From positions 96,001 through 160,000 of the IMG/VR virus record IMGVR_UViG_3300046517_002960: 64,000 bases of DNA; one strand, written 5' to 3'. The translations under genes were made by a program, and so were the position numbers. How positions within the stretch are numbered: the first letter of the stretch is position 1; each line of letters opens with the position of its first letter. This document shows positions 20,492-57,948 of this stretch, piece after piece. This DNA comes from a virus. Under the pieces are notes generated by a model that was not told the origin of the DNA, searched no databases, and saw only the letters and a program-made list of their open reading frames with translations.

Positions 20492-23400
20492 TTATCTCAC
20501 TGAGCCGTAGTACCCCCTTGAGGAAGCGCTGCCGGCCACCCCGTTCAGTGCCTGGGAGTACGCGGCCGGCGCCGCGCCCGTCAGCGCGATCAGGCGATCA
20601 AGTCTGCTGATCACCTGCATCTCGCCGGGGGTCATCCCGCCCGGGCCGATGACCCCGCCGGGCGGCACGGGCGAGACAACCTCGTTGCGCCCGGTGCCGT
20701 TGTAGGCCAAAGTGAGACCGGGAGGCAGAATGCCACCTCTGTCATACCAGCCGTAAATCGAAGCCAGGGTGGCGTACTGGGACGTACCCTGCTTCGGCAG
20801 CGGCGGCGCGTCGAACATGCTGAACGGCCTGATCGCGGTCGGGAAGCCCGTGCCGGCGGTCTGGGCGAGCTGCCCCAGCATCTGGTACACGCCTATCATC
20901 AGCGCGGGATGGCCGTGTACCAGCGCCTGGTCCTGGGTGACCCGTGCCTCCGCCCGGGCCGCGGCGATGAGGTGGCTCAGCGCGGGTGCGGACGGCACCG
21001 TGCCGGGCCTGCCCAGCGCCGCGTAAGCGGCTTCCCCGGCCCGCTGCCGGGCAGCCAGGGTGGCCAGCTCGCCCCGGATCGCGCTGCGGTTGGAGTACCA
21101 CCAGGTGCCGTGCCGGGCGTGCGCGAGCGAGTCGGCGAAGCCCTTGACGACGTGGGCGTAGTAGGTCTTCTCGGTGCTCTCATCGCTGGCCGCGTTCGCC
21201 CAGAAATCGGACAGGGACTGGGTGCCGTGCGGGGCCGGCCAGGGCGGGAACCGGTGCCCGGCCACGACGCCTCCGGACTGCAGCCGCGGCAGCACCTCGT
21301 GCGGCGGGGCCGGGATGATGGTCTCGTCGTGCCCGGTGGCGTTAACCGCTAGTGTCATCCCGGGCTTGAGCACGCCGCCCTTGTCGTACCAGTTGAACGC
21401 TCGTTCGTGTCCCCAGGCGGCAGCAGGTGAGCCGTACCTGCCGGAGATGTACGCGAGGCCCCACCGGACCTGGTTGGCGTAATCACCCAGGGCGTACGGG
21501 TGGCCGTGTCCCAGGCTGTTACCGGTCAGGTGGATGTGGCCGTTCTGCTCAGCGGTGAAGCTGCCCAGCTCGGTCGTCACGCACCAGACTTCCTGCTCGC
21601 CCGCATCCTCGTAGAAGAACCCCGGGTGCCCGACGTGCAGGGTCGGCTTGACGAACCCGATGATCAGGTTCTCAGTGCCGTACCGCTTGTCTGCGCGCTT
21701 GTAGACGCTGGGCCGGTAGCCTTCCAGGTAAACCGCCAGCCGGATGGTCTCGGCCAGCGCGCCGTCGTTCTGCGAGATCGACCGGTGGACGGTATGGCCT
21801 TCCCGCTGGTCGACCGAGCCTTCCGCCAGGAACATGGCATCCAGCCACGCCCTGCGCTGGGCGCTGGACATCGCCAGGATCATGGCGCGGTGATCCGTAT
21901 TCGGATGCCCGGCGCGCTCGGTCAGGTCCCGTGCGTACGGGGCGCTGAGCCGCCATTCCCGGTCCAGGCGCAGCTCTCCGTGCACCGTGCGCTCGCGCGT
22001 GCGGACCACGCTCCCGTGGCCTGCCAGGGCGCGCTCTATGTCCGGCCAGTTCTCCTGCTTGGTCTGGCCGATATGGAACGTGGCAGGAGAGCCGCCGTGG
22101 CGACCGGTGCCGTACTTCGGGTAGGCCTTGCGCTCCCAGCCGTCGCCGGCGACCCAGCCGAGCAGGGCAGCCTCTTCCAGGGTGATGGGCAGGCCGTCTT
22201 CCGCGTGATGCGGCTTAGCCAGGATCAGGATGCTGTCGGTCAGGCGTCCCTGGATCTCCCGCATTGACTCCCGGGGGAGCGTCGCCCGTGCGCGCTTGTC
22301 ACGCATCAGCCAGCGGTGATTCGGCGTCGTGGTGAACTCGGCCTGCGAGTTTCCGTAGCGGACCACCCGGTGCACTCCGGGATGCAGCACGGCAGTAATC
22401 CGCGTCCACTCGCTGCGCCCGGCCGCCTGGCTGTATCCGACCGTTTCATCACCGACGCGAACCTCGTCATGCTTCAGCCAGCCGCGCCGGGTCAGGACCA
22501 TCATGTCTGTGCTATAGCACTGCGGGATGCCGTAGGCCCCTGAGCTGGGGTTTACTGCCCAGGCGTTCCAGCCGCTTTCCTGGTTCCACAGGGCTTGCAG
22601 CGGCGGCCACTGATTCGCGCCCCAGCCGTACGCCCACAGGATCGAGCGGGCGAACGCCTGCGCCGCGGCAGCGGACCCGCTGTGCGGGGCGCCTGGCGCG
22701 AACCCGACGCCGCCCGGGTTCGATGCCATGGCGGCAGCCCATTTCGGCGGGATCTCGAAACCGGAGTTGCCGGCCAGCGAGGACTCGATCGTGCCGTACT
22801 GGCGGCCCAGCGCGGATAGCATCGTGGCGCCGTTGACGACGAACCCGACGTGATGCGCCGGGTTGCCGAAGAACACCATGCCGCCGGGCACCGGGCCGGA
22901 TGCCTTGCCCCACCGCTGCAGCCCGGCCGCATCAGGCCGCCCTACATTCATGCCGAACTTGTCGTACACAAAACTCACGAATCCGCTGCAGTCCCAGCCG
23001 GTGACAGGAGATGATCCGCCCCACACGTACGGCACCTTGCCCTTGAACCTCTCGGCGTAGGCCAGCACCGACTGCCCGGCGGCCGGCCCGGCCAGCATGG
23101 CCACCGCGCGGTTCGCGCTGTTCACCCCGGCCCTGATGTAGTCCTCCATGGACTTGGCCATCGCGGACGTGAAGCTGCCGTAGATCTTGTTCACGTAATC
23201 CGGGGTCAGGCCCCAGGTGCCAGCCGGGGTGCCGGGTACCGCGCCGCCCGAGGCGAATCCCGGGACGCGCATCCCGGCCGCGCCGTGCGGGGTCACCTCG
23301 ATGCCAGCCAGGCGCGGGACCCGGTCGTACAGCCCGGGGACCGGCAGCAGCGCGGGCGGCACCGCGCCCCCGGCCGCGAACCCGGGCAGCTTGCCGCGCA

Positions 23401-26400
23401 GGTGGTCGACCGCGCCGGCTTGCACCATGCGGGTGGGCACGACGACCTCGCCGGGCATCAGCAGCGCGCCTACCGAGTCGCGGCCGGGGATGCCGCCGGA
23501 GATGAACCCGCCTTCCGCGTGCGGTGACAGGAATCCGCCGGGGCTGATCGAGTAGCTTTTCCCGTCGCTGCCCTTGATGCTGAAGTTGCCGTCGCCGCGC
23601 ATGCTAACCTGCAGGCTGGTGTGCGCGGGCAGGTTGCGCAGCGCGGTGAACAGGTTGTCCGCGTTGCGCCTGCTTACGTCGATGGCGCCGGCCATCTTCT
23701 CGAAGTCGCCCATCGTCGTGCTGGCCTTGCGGCCCGCCTCCGTCAGCTTCTCCCGGCCCAGCTCCTGCCACAGCGCCGCGGCCTTGTCCCGGCTCAGGCC
23801 CAGCCCGTTGACCGCCCAGTCCACGAACTTGGCCTTGGAGTCCCTGGCAGTGAGGTTCAGCTTCGCCAGGTCCGGGCCGAACCTGGCGGTGATCTCTTTC
23901 CACAGCACGTTCGCCCTGCCGGTGGAGACGTCCAGGCCGCTGACCGCCCAGTCCGCGAATGCCTTCCTGGCATCGACGGCTGCGCCCCTGACCTCATTCA
24001 TGGCGGGCTCGAGCTGATTCGAGACCGACTTCCACAGCTGCTCAGCCTGATCGCGGGTCAGGTGCAGGGCCTCCTGCGCGAATGCCAGGAACTGCCTGTG
24101 CGCGTCGGCGGTGCTGCCGGTCAGGTTGACCAGGCTCTGGGCCAGCTGCAGTGCCGTGTCGTGGGTCCTTCTGGAGAACAGCCCGGTTTTCAGCACGGCT
24201 TCGGCGAAGCTGGTGAAGATGGCCTGGCCGCCGTTGGCGGTGATGATGGCCTGCGCCATGGCGGCGTTCAGGTTGGTGCCCAGCGCGATCGACAGGTTCT
24301 TGACGTCCTGGGTCAGGTCGGACGCGTCGGTGGTCAGCGTGGTGGTGATCTTGTCCAGGTCGTGCATCGGGTCCTTGGTCTTGCCGACCCACTTAGACAG
24401 CTCTTTGAAGCTGTTCGCGCCCTGGTACCCTCCGCGCTGCGCCAGCCCGTACAGGATGTCCGTCATCGCCTGCGAGCTCTTGGCCGCCGGCAGCATGGAC
24501 GCGACCATGTCCTTGTTGGCCTGGGCCAGCATGTCCACGCCGTCCTGGCCCTTGCCCGCCGCGTTGGCCAGCAGGGACAGGGAGTCCATCTGGGTGTTGG
24601 CCGCGTCCGCGGTGCGCAGGAACGTGTCCCGGGCCATCAGCGAGGCGGTGTTGATCCCGGTCATCGAGATCTTGCCGCCCTGCGCGGCGTCGGCCGCCAG
24701 CTTCAGGCTCATGCCGACCTTGCCGCTGGAATCGGACAGCTTGACCCCGGCCGTGGTCAGCGACTGGTACAGCCCCTCGGTCTGGGTGGCGAAGGCATTG
24801 AATCCCTGCTCGCCGCCCTCGATCGTCTTGATGAAGGTGTCCCAGCCCTGGTTCAGCTGGCCGACCTTCTCCTGCTGCTGCAGGGCCGCGAAGGTGACCG
24901 CGTTGACCGAGGCCTCCAGCTGGCCGCCGGTCCCGGTGATGTTCTGATAGCCGTTGATCAGGTTCTGCACCTTCTGGTGCATGACCGCGAAGGTGTCGTT
25001 CGCCTTGACCCCGGCCAGGTCCATCAGCGCGAACGCCTGGGAGACGCTGTACCCGTGCCGGACCAGGGAGCCGGTCTCGGCGTACAGGGTCCGGTAGGAG
25101 CCGACCAGCTTGTTCAGCTCACCGCGCAGCCTGGCCACGTCGTCCTGGATGGCCTGTTCTTTCCCGCCACCCGGCACGAACAGGTCCTTGACAGCCCGGC
25201 CGGCCGCTTTCAGGCCGTCCAGGGTGTTCCCGGAGGTGATCCCGGTGACGGCCCTGCCCCACTCAGTGCCGAATGCCTTGGCGTCGTAGCCAAGGGACCG
25301 GAGCGTGGTGCCCAGGTTGCCCCAGTTCTTGCCCTCGGCGGCCAGCAGGGCGCCGCTATCGGTCATCCGCCCGCGGAGCTCGCCGATGGCAACGGCCAGC
25401 CCGGTGGTCGCCGCCTCCGACGCTGTCATCGCCGCAGCCTGGGCCTGTACGTCCGCGATGAGGTTCTTCGTGCCGGTGTCGGTCTGGTTCATCTGGTAGA
25501 CCAGGAGGCCGATCGCGGCAGCCCCGGCGATCGCCCAGGTCCACGGGCTGGTGATCAGCGCGGCCAGCCCGGTGACCAGATTGAGCGACCCGGCTGCCGC
25601 CTTGCCCAGCGCCCCGCCCAGCAAGCCGACGTCAGTGGCGGCCTCGGCCGCGATGCCGAACTTGGAGATCCAGCCGATCAGGGACGCGATCGGGCCGATC
25701 ATCTTGACGAACATGCCGCCGAGCACAGAACCCCAGAGCCACACGCCATGCAGCGCCAGCGCGGCTGCAATCAGCGGGCCGGGCAGCTTGGAGATCACGT
25801 CCAGCACCTGCGTGGCGGCGACGAAGAACTGCAGGAAGTAGTGCGCGATCCCCGGGTCCTTGGTCAGCAGGTTGTGGATCGCCTCGGTGACGTGGCCGAC
25901 GATCTGGCCGAACTGGGCTAGGTACCCGGTCCCGCTCCTGATCATCCCGGCGAAGCTGCCCTGCTTGCCGACCCAGATGTCGATCTCGGCAACCCACCTG
26001 TCGAACAGGTCGACAACCGGCTCGAGGATTTTCTGCAGGTTCGCGGACTGGCTGTTGATGACGCCCAGGGCGCCGCCGAAGATCTCGATGCTCCGCGGCG
26101 CCATCGCTTCCATCAGGGCATCGAACTTGCCGGTCAGCGGCGGGATGTCGGCGCCCATCGCCGCAGACACGGTCCGCACGGCCTGGATCCGCACCCCGAC
26201 GTCATGCATCGACTCGGACAGCGCCGCGACCCCGGCTGCCCCGGCGATGACCGCGCCGGTCACCGCGATGATCGACTCGATGACGGCGTCCAGCGCGACG
26301 TGCCACACCTTGATCCCGCCGATGGCGCCGCCCAGGCCCCAGAATCCGCCGCCCTTGAACGCCCAGCCCTGCAGTTTCGCCCAGGCGCCCTCGGTCGCAG

Positions 26401-27626
26401 CGATCGCCGGGGTCAGGCTGTGCAGCCCGGCGGTCATCGCGGCGACCGCAGCCGCGGCGGCTGCCAGCTTCACCGGGTCCCCGCTGATGGACAGGTCGGC
26501 CAGGGTGGCTTTCAGCTTCTCGCCCCGGAGCTCCAGCGCCGCCAGCTTCGCCTCCGCGGCCGGCTCGCCTGCCAGCTCGATCTTCGCCTTAGCCAGCGCC
26601 GCGTCCAGCTTCTCGGCCCGGATCCGCAGCTCGCCCAGCGCCCTGCCCGGCGGCCCGATCGCGGTCCCGGCCAGCGAGGTGTTCAGCTTGGTCACCTCGT
26701 TGTCGATCCCGGCGATGCCGGCGGCCAGCGAGGTGACCTCCGCCATGGACAGGCCGCCCAGCCGGACCCGCTCGGCTTCAGCCCGCAGCATTCCGACTTC
26801 CGAGGTCACCGCGGCGATCTCGGCCTGGACCTCGTGAATCTGGGCCTCGTTCATCAGCCGGATGCCAGCGCCTTCCGCGCGCAGCCGCATCAGGCGGTCC
26901 TCGGCCGCGGACAGCTGGGAGAACAGCCCGGTGGTGGTGGCGGCCAGCTCGATCCGCCGCGCGTCGGATTTCAGCACGTTGATCCGGCCGACGATCACGT
27001 CCAGCTTCTTCTTCAGCTCCGTGTCCTCGATGTCGCCGGGGATCTTCTCCAGCGCCCGGCGGATCTGCTCGGCCTGGCCCTGCAGGTGCTTCAGCTCGTA
27101 CGCGGCTTCCGCGTCGTTCAGGGTCAGCTGCAGCCCGGACAGCTTGCGCTGCAGCCCGGCGGTGGCGGTGACCTCCCGGGCGATCGCCGCGTCGATCTTG
27201 CCGGTGTCCGCGCCCATCTGCAGGTTGCGCAGCTTGGTCTCCAGCCCGGACAGCTTCGCGGCTCCCTTCGCGATCGCCGCGTCCATCTTGGCCGGGTCGG
27301 CGGCCAGCTCCATGGACCGCATCTGCTTGTCCAGCAGCGCGACCTTATTCAGCAGCTTGGTCACCGCGGCGCTCATCGCCGTGTCGTCCGCGCTGAACCT
27401 GATGTTCGCGACCTTGGCGGCGGCGGCGGCCAGCTCGGCCCGCACCTTGGTCATCGCGGCGGTGACCGGCGAGGTGTCCGCGCCGATCTTGACGTCCTGC
27501 TTGGGTACGGCGGTGACGGCGGCCTTGACCTTCGCGGTCAGCTCCTGGAGGAACGAGTCAGTGTCCGGCGAGACTCGTTAAAATGACAATGAATGCCTCG
27601 CCTAGAACGCGGCCACCCGTTGCCAT
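20492..27626 (-). CDS. tape measure protein (about 2374 aa with 10-nt bypass) with NlpC/P60, intein-split lytic transglycosylase
   Basis: ATG 27626 after CAGGAGGGGGG; MATGGRVLGEAFIVI then SPDTDSF in another frame; GGFISG..RDSV..LLMPGE, PYVWGG..WDCSG, QESGWN..GAYGIPQ motifs. Confidence 0.9.
21518..22519 (-). mobile_element. intein (334 aa) with LAGLIDADG-type homing endonuclease
   Basis: IPQ|CYSTDMMVLTRRGW, TTTPNHRW block B, LLGWVAGDG and MFLAEG, VWCVTT block F, LTGN|S; removal restores GIPQSLGHG. Confidence 0.93.
27572..27581 (-). other. candidate translational bypass gap (UUAACGAGUC)
   Basis: Take-off AUU, A-site UUA, landing GUC; 8-bp hairpin AACGAGUC/GACUCGUU over the landing site. Confidence 0.7.
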
Positions 27627-27685
27627 ATCAGACCACCCCCCTCCTGATAAGAGGGGCAGCCTGACACGGAAGCGCTGGCGCCACG

Positions 27686-28084
27686 TCAGATCATGCCTTC
27701 CAGGGCGTCCAGCGCCGTGGTCATGAAGGGGTACCGGTCCCGCATCTGCACGGCGCCGTGCGGCCGGTGCTCCAGGAACACGGCCGGGAACGCCGCGACG
27801 TTGACGCCGCCGTACATCCCGCCGAGCGAGCCCGCGACGGGGCCGTGCACGTGGATCGAGCGGCGGGTGAACCCGGGCGGCAGGGCGTACCGCGCGGTGC
27901 TGGTCGCCGGGTTCCAGATGGTCGACCGCCGGGTGCCGGGGAAGACGTGCACGGTGCTGCGGGCGATGTCCGCCGCCTTCTCGTCCAGCTCGGCGATCAG
28001 CCGTCCGACCGGCCCGGCCGGGTCGCTCAGCATCGCTTCCACGTCGCCGGGGCTGATGCGGAGGCTCCCCAGGTTGCGGGGCAT
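27686..28084 (-). CDS. HK97-gp10-like neck/tail completion protein
   Basis: IARSTVHVFPG, RRSIHV, AVFLEH, RYPFMTTALDAL resemble gp10-like proteins. Confidence 0.55.
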   Translation of the reverse strand: MPRNLGSLRISPGDVEAMLSDPAGPVGRLIAELDEKAADIARSTVHVFPGTRRSTIWNPATSTARYALPPGFTRRSIHVHGPVAGSLGGMYGGVNVAAFPAVFLEHRPHGAVQMRDRYPFMTTALDALEGMI

Positions 28085-28981: not shown

Positions 28982-30007
28982 TCAGGTGCCGGGCAGGCCG
29001 TAGACCGGGTAGCGCGCGATGCGGCTGGCCGCGTTCCATGTCGACTTGAGTGACACGGCTGCCGTGACACCGCCAGTGACACTGTAGTCAGGCAGAATGG
29101 TGCCGAAGAAGTACTGCGGCAGCTGTGACGGAAGCGACGACGGGTAAAGATAGAAGTTGCGCGGCAGGCCGTCAGTGGCTGATACGTACGTTTGCGTTGT
29201 AGCGGTGTCGTAGAAGCCGCTGAAGTCTCCTGAGGCGTCCGGGAGTCCTGCGACCCAGATGAGGTTCTGGTCCGATCTGTTACCTCTCGCCCCTGCGAGC
29301 GAGCGGGCCAGTCATTTCTGCTGGCCTCTGCATATCTCTATGCAGGCCGGACTGTATCTTCACCCGCGTGGGGTGCCGCGTACACAGTCTCTGAACCTTC
29401 TCGTCGGCTTGCGCCAGGCGAGCTCGGCTGCTGATTACCCCTGCTGGCTGCTTTTCGGACCGTCGCGCTCGCGCTTTCGCGCCACGCTGTGGTGCAGCCA
29501 GGTGACCCGGGCGTCCCAGCAATTCTCGCAGTTTTCACAGTAGAATCACTTCTACCGGGGGCAAACACCCATAGCAGTTACATCAACTTTCGCAACTGTA
29601 AAATTGATGCTCCAGGCGCTCAAAAACGCCATGGGACTCGCTGTTGGATTGGCGCCACCTGGGCCATCTACAGCCACATAGGCGATGCCGTTTCGCGTTC
29701 TGTTACCTCTCGCCTAAGCGAGCGGGCAGGTCGTTTCCGCCTGCCTCTGCATATCTCTATGCAGACCGGACCATATCTTCACCCGCATGGGGTGCCACGT
29801 ACATGGTCTCTGAACCTTCTCGTCGGGGCTGACCCAGGCGAGCTCGGCTGCTGATTGCCCCTGCCGGCCACTTCTCAGAACCGTCGCGCCCGGGCTTTCG
29901 CCCCACGCTGTGGTGTGACCGGGTGATGCGGGTGTTCCAGCAATTCTCGCGGTTTGCACTGAAAGATCGCTCTCTCAGGCGGCCAGCCGACCGTGAATAC
30001 GACTCAT
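28982..30007 (-). CDS. major tail protein (145 aa), exons 29990-30007, 29567-29695, 28982-29272
   Basis: Splicing gives MSRIHG+RNGIAYVAVDG...VDVTAMG+DQNLIWVAGLPDASGDFSGFYD...PGT*; GAAAGG RBS. Confidence 0.92.
29273..29566 (-). mobile_element. group I intron 2 (294 nt, no ORF)
   Basis: Same core motifs; P1 GGGU/GCCC; compensatory P7 change versus intron 1. Confidence 0.92.
29696..29989 (-). mobile_element. group I intron 1 (294 nt, no ORF)
   Basis: Exon ends U, intron ends G; P GAAUUGCUGG, Q AAUCAGCAG, R GUUCAGAGAC, S GAAGAUAUGGUCC; P1 CGGU/GCCG. Confidence 0.92.
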
Positions 30008-48179: not shown

Positions 48180-48572
48180 TCACGCGCATGTCGCCGCCGC
48201 GCCCAGCATCAGCCCGCCGGCGCTCATCCCGGCCCAGGACTGGGCGAGCTGGGTGAACTGGACCGGGACCTCCCACCGGTCCCCGGGGTTGAGCAGCCAG
48301 TCGTACGTGGTGCTGATGGGTATGGTGGCGTCGAACCGGATCCACACCGCGGCGGACGCCGCGCAGGACAGGATGAGCCCGACCCGGGTCACGTCCGCCG
48401 GGATCACGCCGGACAGCCCGGCTGTGGTGACCGTCCACGGCAGGTTGGACAGCGTGCCCTTGGCCGTGCCGCGCACCTCCCGCACGTACTGGTCGTAATC
48501 ACCGCTGACCTTCTGGAACGCGCGGACGAGCGTGCCGGAGCCCGCGGTGACCGGGATATCGACATCAGGCAC
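48180..48572 (-). CDS. virion structural protein
   Basis: GTGA coupling to the SGNH gene. Confidence 0.6.
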   Translation of the reverse strand: MPDVDIPVTAGSGTLVRAFQKVSGDYDQYVREVRGTAKGTLSNLPWTVTTAGLSGVIPADVTRVGLILSCAASAAVWIRFDATIPISTTYDWLLNPGDRWEVPVQFTQLAQSWAGMSAGGLMLGAAATCA

Positions 48573-48605
48573 GGGAACCCCGTCAGGTTGTCACAGTATT
48601 GACGC

Positions 48606-49109
48606 CTATACCGCTACTTGCATCAGGCCCGCAGCGTTCCACTGGATCGTGAAGGTCCCGGCCGTGACCTGCTGCACACCGCCGAAGCTGTGGAACGCGC
48701 AGCCCTGCTTGGCGACCGGGGTGGCCAGGGTGAAGTCGTAGAGCAGGTCGCCGTACACGTTCGCCAGCGTGACGTTGCCGGCGCCGCTCGTGTCGGCCCC
48801 GTCGAAGGTGATCTGGTTGGTCGCGGAGATGCCGGTTCCGGAGGTGTAGCCGCCGCCGGAGCCGGTGCCGGTCACGGTCACCCCGCCGGCCGGCCAGTTC
48901 GTGTCGGTGATCTCGTTCGCCGTGATCCACACGCCCGTGTTGTACGCCGAGGCCGCGGCGGCGACCGTCTTGTCCGGCGTCGTGGTGTTGTTGAACAGCG
49001 CCGCCTTGAACACGTCGGTGCTGTTCCACTTGCCGACGAAGCTGCCGGTCGGTGCGAGGGAGTCGGCGATCCACTGCCGGAAGATGTTGCTGTTGGCCCC
49101 GAATGCCAT
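48606..49109 (-). CDS. conserved small virion protein
   Basis: FKAALF..NEI..WPAGG..ITFDGAD..GTFTIQWNAAG pattern recalled from phage structural proteins. Confidence 0.65.
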   Translation of the reverse strand: MAFGANSNIFRQWIADSLAPTGSFVGKWNSTDVFKAALFNNTTTPDKTVAAAASAYNTGVWITANEITDTNWPAGGVTVTGTGSGGGYTSGTGISATNQITFDGADTSGAGNVTLANVYGDLLYDFTLATPVAKQGCAFHSFGGVQQVTAGTFTIQWNAAGLMQVAV

Positions 49110-50020: not shown

Positions 50021-50236
50021 CTAGGTACTCCAGGCAGCGCGGGCAGCCGACCTCAGCGCGGTCGCCGGGAATCCGCAGCGCCCGCGCGCCGCAGTAGGTG
50101 CGTGCCTGGAACGCGTTGTCGCCCGGGTGCAGGGAACTGATGCCGAACAGGCGGTGATCCCAGAGCTGGTCAGCCGCGCGGCAGGTAACCAGGGGTGTAA
50201 TCTCGAACGGCGGCGTCCACTCGCCCTGGTGATCAA
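50021..50236 (-). CDS. region of a small Cys/His hypothetical protein (frame 49998-50255 more likely)
   Basis: Frame 49998-50255 carries HPGD..YCG..CPRC and is coupled to the upstream gene. Confidence 0.35.
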   Translation of the reverse strand: MITRASGRRRSRLHPWLPAARLTSSGITACSASVPCTRATTRSRHAPTAARGRCGFPATALRSAARAAWST

Positions 50237-50254
50237 GCAGCCGTGCGGCCGGCA

Positions 50255-50569
50255 TTAGTCTTCACGCGATAGCGGCAGGAGGCCGGAGCTCCTGACCCCG
50301 AAGTCATCCGGCACGGTGAGCAGGCCGGTCTCCACCAGGTGCAGCACGCCGGCCGAGACCACCCGCCTGACGAACTCCTGCGGCGTCTCGGGCTGCTGCT
50401 CGCCGCGCGGCCCGCGGATGCTAATCGGCGGGCCGCCGCGCAGCGCCTCCATGTCGGCCGCCATTGACGCGAAGTAGATCAGCGCCTGCGCTACGTCGTC
50501 CGGTACCTGGCCGCGCTGGAACTCCGCGGGATCGTGCACCACCCGGGACGGATCCCTGCCCCGCCGCAT
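50255..50569 (-). CDS. hypothetical protein
   Basis: TGATG coupling at both ends. Confidence 0.6.
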   Translation of the reverse strand: MRRGRDPSRVVHDPAEFQRGQVPDDVAQALIYFASMAADMEALRGGPPISIRGPRGEQQPETPQEFVRRVVSAGVLHLVETGLLTVPDDFGVRSSGLLPLSRED

Positions 50570-56176: not shown

Positions 56177-56253
56177 GGGGAAGCAGTAGCTTAACGGACA
56201 GAGCACGGCTGATCACCGACTGGTGAGGGGTTCGAGTCCCTTCCTGCTCCCCC
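56177..56253 (+). ncRNA. non-canonical tRNA-like RNA with GAT loop
   Basis: About 9-bp bulged acceptor, 3-bp anticodon stem CGG-CTGATCA-CCG, 6-bp T stem with TTCGAGT. Confidence 0.55.
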
Positions 56254-57792: not shown

Positions 57793-57869
57793 GGCGAGAT
57801 AGCTCAGGCTGGCAGAGCGCCGGACTCATACCCCGGAGGTCGGGATCTCGGTATTCCCTCTCGCTACCA
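57793..57869 (+). tRNA. tRNA(CAT), elongator Met or Ile2, atypical T arm
   Basis: Loop CT-CAT-AC; T loop lacks TTC; CCA. Confidence 0.75.
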
Positions 57870-57948
57870 CGGCCCGTAGTTCAGCCTGGCTTAGAACGGC
57901 ACCCTTATGAAGTGTGCGTCAGGGGTTCAAATCCCCTCGGGCCCACCA
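57870..57948 (+). tRNA. tRNA-Ile(TAT)
   Basis: Loop CT-TAT-GA; C1xC72; CCA. Confidence 0.8.

What the first reader, a model, noticed from the sequence alone, without database searches (positions are those of the whole stretch)
27552..27626. UUA-triggered 10-nt translational bypass candidate in the tape measure gene, with tRNA-Leu(UAA) missing from the array
Seen: the well-placed start (ATG 27626, strong RBS) reads MATGGRVLGEAFIVI then hits UUA and stops soon after; the 2359-codon body is in another frame, bounded by TAA, and its first ATG lies 39 codons in with no recognisable RBS. Skipping exactly 10 nt (UUAACGAGUC) gives GEAFIVI-SPDTDSF, a natural tape-measure N-terminus. Take-off AUU, landing GUC (pairable by tRNA-Ile GAU with a first-position G:U), and an 8-bp hairpin AACGAGUC/GACUCGUU covers the landing site. 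The 40 tRNAs include Leu CAA, GAG and CAG but no UAA. Known: UUA is very rare in Streptomyces, read by the developmentally controlled bldA tRNA, and a 10-nt UUA-led bypass was proposed for the phage Hau3 terminase. Inference: tail assembly is gated by host tRNA-Leu(UAA) status, here on a different gene.
Basis: partly seen in the sequence, partly recalled or inferred. Interest (0 to 1): 0.88.

Follow-up and report, generated by a model that had tools for sequence, protein, structure and literature searches.

The report
Ribosome hop in phage tape-measure gene
The essential tail tape-measure gene of this uncultured soil actinomycete phage is broken after codon 15 by ten extra bases that begin with the otherwise unused codon TTA, and about 75 related gene versions indicate that ribosomes hop over them, a rare way of reading genes that here looks linked to selfish DNA-cutting genes rather than to a proven host-development switch.

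Summary
Confirmed. The 10-nt insert (27581-27572) is in independent assemblies. Removing it restores the N-terminal motif that is unbroken in about 70 relatives. The 15-codon head differs from its closest relative by 9 synonymous changes and 1 replacement, so it is still under selection as protein. TTA occurs 0 times in 51,537 coding codons. Terminase, portal and a glycosyltransferase of the same genome carry TTA-led gaps that homologues confirm. Across the family I found 27 distinct TTA-led gaps of 1-15 nt, with landing triplets that match the take-off codon in a tRNA-like way. A ribosome hop is therefore likely (about 0.8) but not shown experimentally. The bldA-gate reading is weaker. The host is unknown, with no sign of Streptomyces. 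UAA is one of six missing anticodons. The gaps are scattered on the tree, some are in frame, and they go with recoded heads and inverted HNH genes or remnants, as in T4 mobA/gene 60. New here: a 21-bp stem hides the RBS and start codon. The scan noted similar gaps earlier, in other genomes and elsewhere in this one. In the papers I could search, the precedent is limited to the Hau3 terminase and two prophages.

The parts
27686..28084 (-). conserved 132-aa gene that precedes the tape measure gene throughout the family; function unknown
   Evidence: 33 homologues; no Pfam or PHROG hit
27628..27684 (-). extra spacer holding an 18-codon uORF; it starts with the ancestral GTG start and its stop lies 1 nt before the new ATG; probable remnant of a mobile element (inferred)
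   Evidence: absent in L001, L002, L050, L057, where the spacer is 1 nt
27623..27669 (-). 21-bp RNA stem with 7 G-U pairs that hides the SD (27644-40) and the AUG
   Evidence: z -5.08, 0 of 200 shuffles fold as well; the four gap alleles have the four strongest spacer folds
27582..27626 (-). 15-codon head of the tape measure protein, synonymously recoded towards A/T; ends in take-off codon AUU (27584-82)
   Evidence: versus L002: 9 synonymous, 1 replacement, start codon changed; body 68 synonymous per 426 conserved codons, p 4e-5
27572..27581 (-). 10-nt coding gap: UUA first (27581-79), +1-frame UAA (27580-78), landing triplet GUC (27574-72)
   Evidence: exact insert against about 70 intact alleles; fixed in same-species assemblies
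27552..27579 (-). 8-bp stem between the gap and an ancestral downstream arm; role unclear, possibly a trace of fold-back copying
27558..27560 (-). zero-frame UGA that ends the 22-aa product if UUA is decoded
20492..27571 (-). tape measure body, 2359 codons, with NlpC/P60 and transglycosylase-like domains and a 334-aa intein (22519-21518); joined product 2374 aa
53960..61547 (+). tRNA array of about 40 genes; lacks UAA and five other standard anticodons

Best explanation
The gene is read by a short translational bypass. Ribosomes probably reach the buried AUG by coupling through the 18-codon uORF (inferred). They translate 15 codons and stall with peptidyl-tRNA-Ile on AUU and UUA in the A site, a codon this phage never uses as sense. 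The tRNA lets go, slides 10 nt, re-pairs on GUC (U-G at the first position) and decoding resumes in the body frame. A +1 slip meets UAA at once, and decoding UUA gives a 22-aa dead end. The gap most likely came with a homing-type HNH element that inserted in front of the gene, supplied a recoded head and broke its own DNA target with a block that leaves the protein unchanged. The nuclease was later lost, leaving the 59-nt spacer. The gap is tolerated because UUA is read very slowly in the host. Shown: insert, exact junction, selection on the head, TTA avoidance, recurrence and landing rule. Inferred: the hop itself, its efficiency, coupling, nuclease immunity. The hop alone, whatever its purpose, about 0.8.
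For: Exact restoration against about 70 alleles. Head under purifying selection. TTA 0 of 51,537 codons against 33-55 for TTG, CTA, CTT; 2 of 54,493 in family homologues, both near C-termini. Five tape-measure lineages have gaps at three codon positions, all starting TTA: window 10 nt, L065 5 nt AUC to AUC, L033 7 nt GAU to GAC, L135 7 nt GCU to ACC, L116 13 and 15 nt. Four of them were placed on a tail-tube tree: separate positions with gap-less relatives, one clade rejected, p-AU 2e-18. In 25 distinct gaps of four genes the landing triplet matches take-off at position 1 in 21, position 2 in 24, position 3 in only 8, and is synonymous in 19; no permutation of 100,000 did as well. That pattern fits an anticodon, not a DNA repeat. 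Same genome: terminase 8 nt, portal 8 nt, glycosyltransferase 7 nt, all exact against homologues. Inverted HNH genes (phrog_374) sit at this spacer in L003, L051, L079, L126. L065 keeps the 5' end of the L079 element, has lost the nuclease, carries a gap and is identical to L079 3' of it. Gap alleles have spacers of 59 nt or more, 4 of 4 against 10 of 59, p 0.002 with a threshold chosen afterwards; L116 fits too (67 nt). Portal gap alleles have lower GC3 upstream, 0.59 against 0.88, p 2e-5. A related HNH lies next to a candidate 5-nt gap at genome 48192.
Against: No protein, ribosome or RNA data. The landing triplet is near-cognate, and competing slips (+1, +2, +12) lead to stops, so the yield may be low for an essential protein. 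Three HNH-bearing alleles (L003, L051, L079) have no gap. For portal the HNH link is only suggestive (5 of 16 against 1 of 18, p 0.08). No nuclease remains at this site and no cleavage site was tested. No T4-type stimulators were found.
Confidence: 0.6

Rival explanations
1. Same hop, but kept as a sensor. While the host's tRNA-Leu(UAA) is scarce, ribosomes hop and virions are built; when it is charged, UUA is read and tape measure, portal and terminase are cut short, which delays assembly (the Hau3 model; the first reader's view).
For: At least four genes of this genome, three of them essential for assembly, have frame-breaking gaps. The gap outlived its nuclease. Streptosporangiaceae genomes, a weak host hint, encode tRNA-Leu(UAA), often an atypical form with C33, and one such genome has 0 TTA in 54,236 codons. 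Hau3 precedent (PMC10732093).
Against: Only 5 of about 75 tape-measure alleles have gaps, and close sisters lack them. In-frame 6- and 9-nt portal gaps without stops would gate little, yet mostly keep matched landing triplets. No tyrosine or serine integrase, ParA-type ATPase or WhiB was found in a 90% complete record. Host and growth-phase control are unknown.
Confidence: 0.22
2. The head is not joined; the protein starts inside the body (Met 27454 or a non-standard codon), as was considered for mycobacteriophage Corndog.
For: Relatives L027, L080, L096 appear to use AUC or AUU starts; Corndog tmp uses a non-canonical route (PMC4351075).
Against: No SD at codon 40 or 43, and the CUG at codon 11 directly abuts its SD-like motif. 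Met40 is an ordinary internal residue in intact relatives. The head stays conserved as protein.
Confidence: 0.05
3. UUA is decoded and the frame is restored later, for example by a -2 slip at CAC-UGA onto GAC, giving an altered N-terminus.
For: GAC overlaps the CAC before the zero-frame stop; two glycosyltransferase alleles look like +1 slips at UUU-UUA.
Against: It replaces the conserved Ser-Pro-Asp and adds residues. It does not explain the family-wide landing rule or gaps with an internal stop (L116). Slips on the U run meet UAA.
Confidence: 0.05
4. The 10 nt are removed from the RNA, for example by trans-excision through one of the phage's group I introns.
For: The neighbouring tail tube gene holds two group I-like introns.
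Against: Gap ends follow the take-off codon with a free third position and show no fixed terminal G; no natural case is known to me.
Confidence: 0.04
5. An inactivating mutation in a defective provirus, or an assembly artefact.
For: IMG/VR labels the record a provirus.
Against: Fixed in assemblies of several studies, 2020 and 2023; the 7-kb body is open; all real gaps but one (L255) start at TTA.
Confidence: 0.04

Closest known systems
UUA-led bypass candidates in the large terminase of Streptomyces phage phiHau3 and prophages of Streptomyces sp. C and S. catenulae (Smith 2013, as cited in PMC10732093; Antonov 2023, PMC10732093)
   Same: Frame-breaking 7-10-nt block that starts with UUA at a conserved junction of an essential assembly gene; near-matched landing triplet; zero-frame stop soon after. 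The second Hau3 gap shares its first six bases with this one and also has a +1 UAA.
   Different: Tape measure gene, 15 codons from the start; unrelated 190-kb phage family with no GenBank relative of the neighbouring gene; first-position mismatch at landing; no Trp-Gly nascent motif; many genes and lengths from 1 to 15 nt; linked to HNH elements; host not shown to be Streptomyces.
T4 gene 60 bypass within the MobA homing element (bioRxiv 10.1101/2022.08.31.505936)
   Same: HNH element, recoded replacement of the host gene's sequence, and a bypassed insert that outlives the nuclease; a stop or hungry codon at take-off.
   Different: 10 nt rather than 50; no dedicated take-off stem-loop, gap SD or nascent-peptide signal found; HNH inverted and upstream of the gene; protection from cutting shown for T4, untested here.
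Mycobacteriophage Corndog tape measure gene (PMC4351075)
   Same: HNH inserted just before tmp, with non-canonical translation of tmp.
   Different: Corndog lacks a normal start codon and has no frame-breaking UUA gap; its mechanism is unresolved.
Mitochondrial byps of Magnusiomyces capitatus (cited in PMC10732093 and PMC5009743; details from my own knowledge)
   Same: Many short inserts, triggered by an avoided codon, with relaxed take-off and landing match.
   Different: Bacterial ribosome and phage genes; no conserved hairpin in the gaps; the trigger codon still has a tRNA gene in candidate hosts.

Membership tests
Hau3-type UUA bypass | frame-breaking insert starting with UUA, absent from homologues at a conserved junction | tested here: met
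Hau3-type UUA bypass | landing triplet that the take-off tRNA can re-pair with | tested here: met
   AUU to GUC, near-cognate; only productive U-centred triplet; family rule
Hau3-type UUA bypass | UUA avoided elsewhere in the genome | tested here: met
   0 of 51,537 codons
Hau3-type UUA bypass | stem-loop and internal SD flanking the gap | tested here: inconclusive
   8-bp stem, z -0.5, not shared by other gaps; only a 4-nt SD-like motif 14 nt upstream, which is ancestral coding sequence
Hau3-type UUA bypass | Streptomyces host with growth-phase control of bldA tRNA | tested here: inconclusive
   no Streptomyces link found; weak hints to Streptosporangiaceae
Hau3-type UUA bypass | junction peptide or full-length product shown | not testable with these tools
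   needs mass spectrometry or reporters
T4 MobA/gene 60 element | HNH gene or remnant next to a recoded replacement segment and the gap | tested here: inconclusive
   recoded head and extra spacer here; HNH at this site only in relatives
T4 MobA/gene 60 element | about 50-nt gap in a topoisomerase gene with take-off stem-loop and matched Gly codons | tested here: not met
   10-nt gap in a tape measure gene; works like it in origin, not a member
T4 MobA/gene 60 element | insert blocks cleavage by the element's nuclease | not testable with these tools
   needs a cleavage assay

The most novel reading that the evidence does not exclude
In this phage family any in-frame UUA works as a general, signal-free hop trigger. 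Homing nucleases exploit it to break their own DNA targets in many essential genes without changing the proteins, and the piled-up gaps make head and tail assembly jointly depend on a poorly working C33 tRNA-Leu(UAA) of a non-Streptomyces actinomycete host.
Probability: 0.3. Interest if true: 0.9.

Novelty: new variant of a known kind. Interest (0 to 1): 0.74.

Why it matters
Programmed bypassing is established for T4 gene 60 and yeast mitochondrial byps. In actinophages it rests on three terminase genes, with the junction peptide shown only in E. coli (PMC10732093). Here it appears as a family-wide, repeatedly gained feature of tape measure, portal, terminase and glycosyltransferase genes. 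The 27 natural gap variants give an allelic series for hop distance and landing tolerance, and natural pairs with and without gap or nuclease (L065/L079, L135/L134) let one test directly whether UUA gaps are developmental sensors or nuclease-immunity marks. In practice, gene callers truncate these essential genes.

Tried and rejected
Single-protein scan with the tape-measure N-terminal region found nothing in IMG/VR; no GenBank phage relative of the neighbouring gene; no RNA holder listed, which is no evidence on expression. Smith 2013 is not held, so it is cited second-hand. A frameshift scan by tblastn was swamped by noise. A homology-free gap scan gave 8 TTA sites but also 2-10 for control triplets, so only homologue-checked gaps are counted. 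Alignment calls at L027, L084, L096, L138, L143, L209, L066, L068 were set aside as ordinary indels or extraction errors; L249 and L237 are TTA-led on inspection but not counted; L255 is a 5-nt gap without TTA. I first suspected that candidate hosts lack tRNA-Leu(UAA). The full inventory of G081 showed the gene is present with C33 and is miscalled by ARAGORN, so 'unassigned codon' was rejected. The phage SpoU protein gave no host signal. No fold or complex jobs were needed.

Full report
Observation. The record is a 190-kb, 70.9% G+C virus from soil and rhizosphere metagenomes. On the minus strand ATG 27626 reads 15 codons, meets UUA at 27581 and stops at UGA 27560 after 22 residues. The 2359-codon tape measure body is in the +1 frame behind a UAA that overlaps the UUA; its first ATG is codon 40 and has no SD. 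Contigs from two studies span the site without a difference, and five further assemblies of the same phage carry the insert. It is not an artefact.

The insert is exactly 10 nt. All six tape-measure homologues from the protein search lack it; five are called from the true start with an unbroken motif, and the sixth is unbroken in a matching locus. About 70 distinct alleles from related loci are likewise unbroken. Against the closest relative L002, the head shows 9 synonymous changes and 1 replacement in 15 codons, while the body shows 68 synonymous changes per 426 conserved codons (p 4e-5). The head has thus been recoded but kept as protein, which argues that it is joined to the body. Within 21 nt the only U-centred triplet that opens the body frame is GUC at +10; slips of +1, +2 and +12 run into stops.

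UUA is not used as sense. It occurs 0 times in 51,537 confidently coding codons, against 33-55 for the other rare Leu codons, and twice in 54,493 codons of family homologues, both near C-termini. In three terminase relatives it stands about where others have a stop.

The feature recurs. A pattern search found a second phage with a 5-nt UUA-led gap at the same codon and a perfect AUC landing. Three more lineages followed: L033 (7 nt), L135 (7 nt) and L116 with two tandem gaps of 13 and 15 nt, the second of which starts with the same six bases at the same codon as here and holds an in-frame stop. On a tail-tube tree the four gap alleles tested sit apart, each among gap-less relatives; one clade is rejected (p-AU 2e-18, 99 columns, L116 not included). 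In this genome terminase, portal and a glycosyltransferase carry gaps of 8, 8 and 7 nt that homologues confirm exactly. An alignment blind to gap sequence gave 25 distinct UUA-led gaps in four genes, 1-11 nt long, with landing matches of 21, 24 and 8 of 25 at codon positions 1, 2 and 3. A free third position is what tRNA re-pairing predicts and what a DNA or RNA direct repeat does not. With L116 the count is 27.

Origin. Where most relatives have 0-3 nt before the start, this allele has 59 nt: an 18-codon uORF beginning at the ancestral GTG and a 21-bp stem that hides SD and AUG (z -5.1). At the same place L003, L051, L079 and L126 carry an inverted HNH nuclease. L065 retains the 5' end of the L079 element, has lost the nuclease, has gained the gap and is identical to L079 downstream of it. 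Long spacers go with gaps (p 0.002, threshold chosen afterwards), and portal gap alleles have recoded upstream codons (p 2e-5). The direct HNH link at portal is only suggestive (p 0.08), and three HNH alleles have no gap. This anatomy parallels the T4 MobA element, where a recoded segment and a bypassed insert protect against the element's nuclease and outlive it (10.1101/2022.08.31.505936). An earlier scan note pointed me to this reading; the tests are my own.

The tRNA and host argument. No UAA anticodon is in the genome, but Leu UAG, Arg UCG, Val UAC, Ala UGC and Gly CCC are missing too, and a phage that does not use UUA has no need of it. The absence is compatible with the model, not evidence for gating. 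The host is unknown. The best cellular tail-tube match is a Streptosporangiaceae MAG contig (66%), and the phage's cytosine methyltransferase has its best DNA matches, within that family, in genomes lacking the canonical U33 tRNA-Leu(UAA) pattern (p 0.004); other families were not searched with it. One such genome, fully inventoried, has the tRNA with C33 in place of U33 and 0 TTA in 54,236 codons; the C33 form is widespread in the family. So UUA is probably a very hungry codon rather than an unassigned one. These host hints are weak, and the MAG match, its codon counts and part of the methyltransferase tally rest on unpublished genomes G001 and G052. No integrase, ParA or WhiB was found.

Comparison. 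It works like the Hau3 terminase bypass and meets its sequence criteria; the flanking signals and the bldA dependence are inconclusive (PMC10732093). It resembles T4 gene 60 in probable origin but is not a member. Corndog offers a precedent for an HNH before tmp with odd translation, without a UUA gap (PMC4351075). Literature searches found no report of UUA gaps in tape measure or portal genes.

Verdict. Real, and most likely a ribosome hop (about 0.8). Nuclease-linked origin with tolerance is the best account (0.6); a selected developmental gate is possible (0.22). New variant of a known kind; interest 0.74.

Noticed in passing
window 28983-30006 (-): Tail tube gene split by two related group I-like introns; the second (about 294 nt) is confirmed as an insert against relatives.
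   Followed up: partly
window 21518-22519 (-): 334-aa intein with a weak LAGLIDADG hit inside the tape measure C-terminal part; absent in L002.
   Followed up: partly
L149 10853-10846, L149 7341-7334, L150 7348-7342 (all -): TTA-led gaps in terminase (8 nt), portal (8 nt) and a glycosyltransferase (7 nt) of the same genome, confirmed by homologues.
   Followed up: yes
genome G000 48192 (-) and 48527-48835 (+): Candidate 5-nt gap (AGA to AGG) in a small HNH-type gene, next to an inverted HNH related to those at the tape measure spacer; not checked against homologues.
   Followed up: partly
genome G000 90347 (+), 81252 (+), 84387 (+), 76708 (-); L007 10300 region; L163, L170, L197: TTA where a gene seems to end, sometimes overlapping the next ATG like a stop-start junction.
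   Followed up: partly
L422 (G081:C1:447615-447725) and about a dozen other Streptosporangiaceae genomes: Short tRNA-Leu(UAA) with C33 instead of the near-universal U33; ARAGORN calls it Phe(AAA). May be a weak UUA decoder.
   Followed up: partly
L027 10355, L080 8115, L096 8020: Tape measure alleles that appear to start at AUC or AUU behind a good SD, all with extra spacer DNA.
   Followed up: no
L236, L237 near 2000: Glycosyltransferase alleles needing a +1 slip at UUU-UUA, the 1-nt limit of the same hop.
   Followed up: partly
window 57793-57866, 57870-57948, 56180-56253: A CAU tRNA missed by ARAGORN; a tRNA whose anticodon reads either AUG or UAU; and a degenerate tRNA-like copy.
   Followed up: partly
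genome G000 50105-50518 (+): SpoU/TrmL-family RNA methyltransferase; no close bacterial match; substrate unknown.
   Followed up: partly
G538:C66 191226-193150: A Streptosporangiaceae genome with 67-69% DNA matches to two stretches of the phage's head region; possible related prophage.
   Followed up: no
L255 near 2000: 5-nt glycosyltransferase gap with matched UCC triplets but no TTA; the one exception seen.
   Followed up: no
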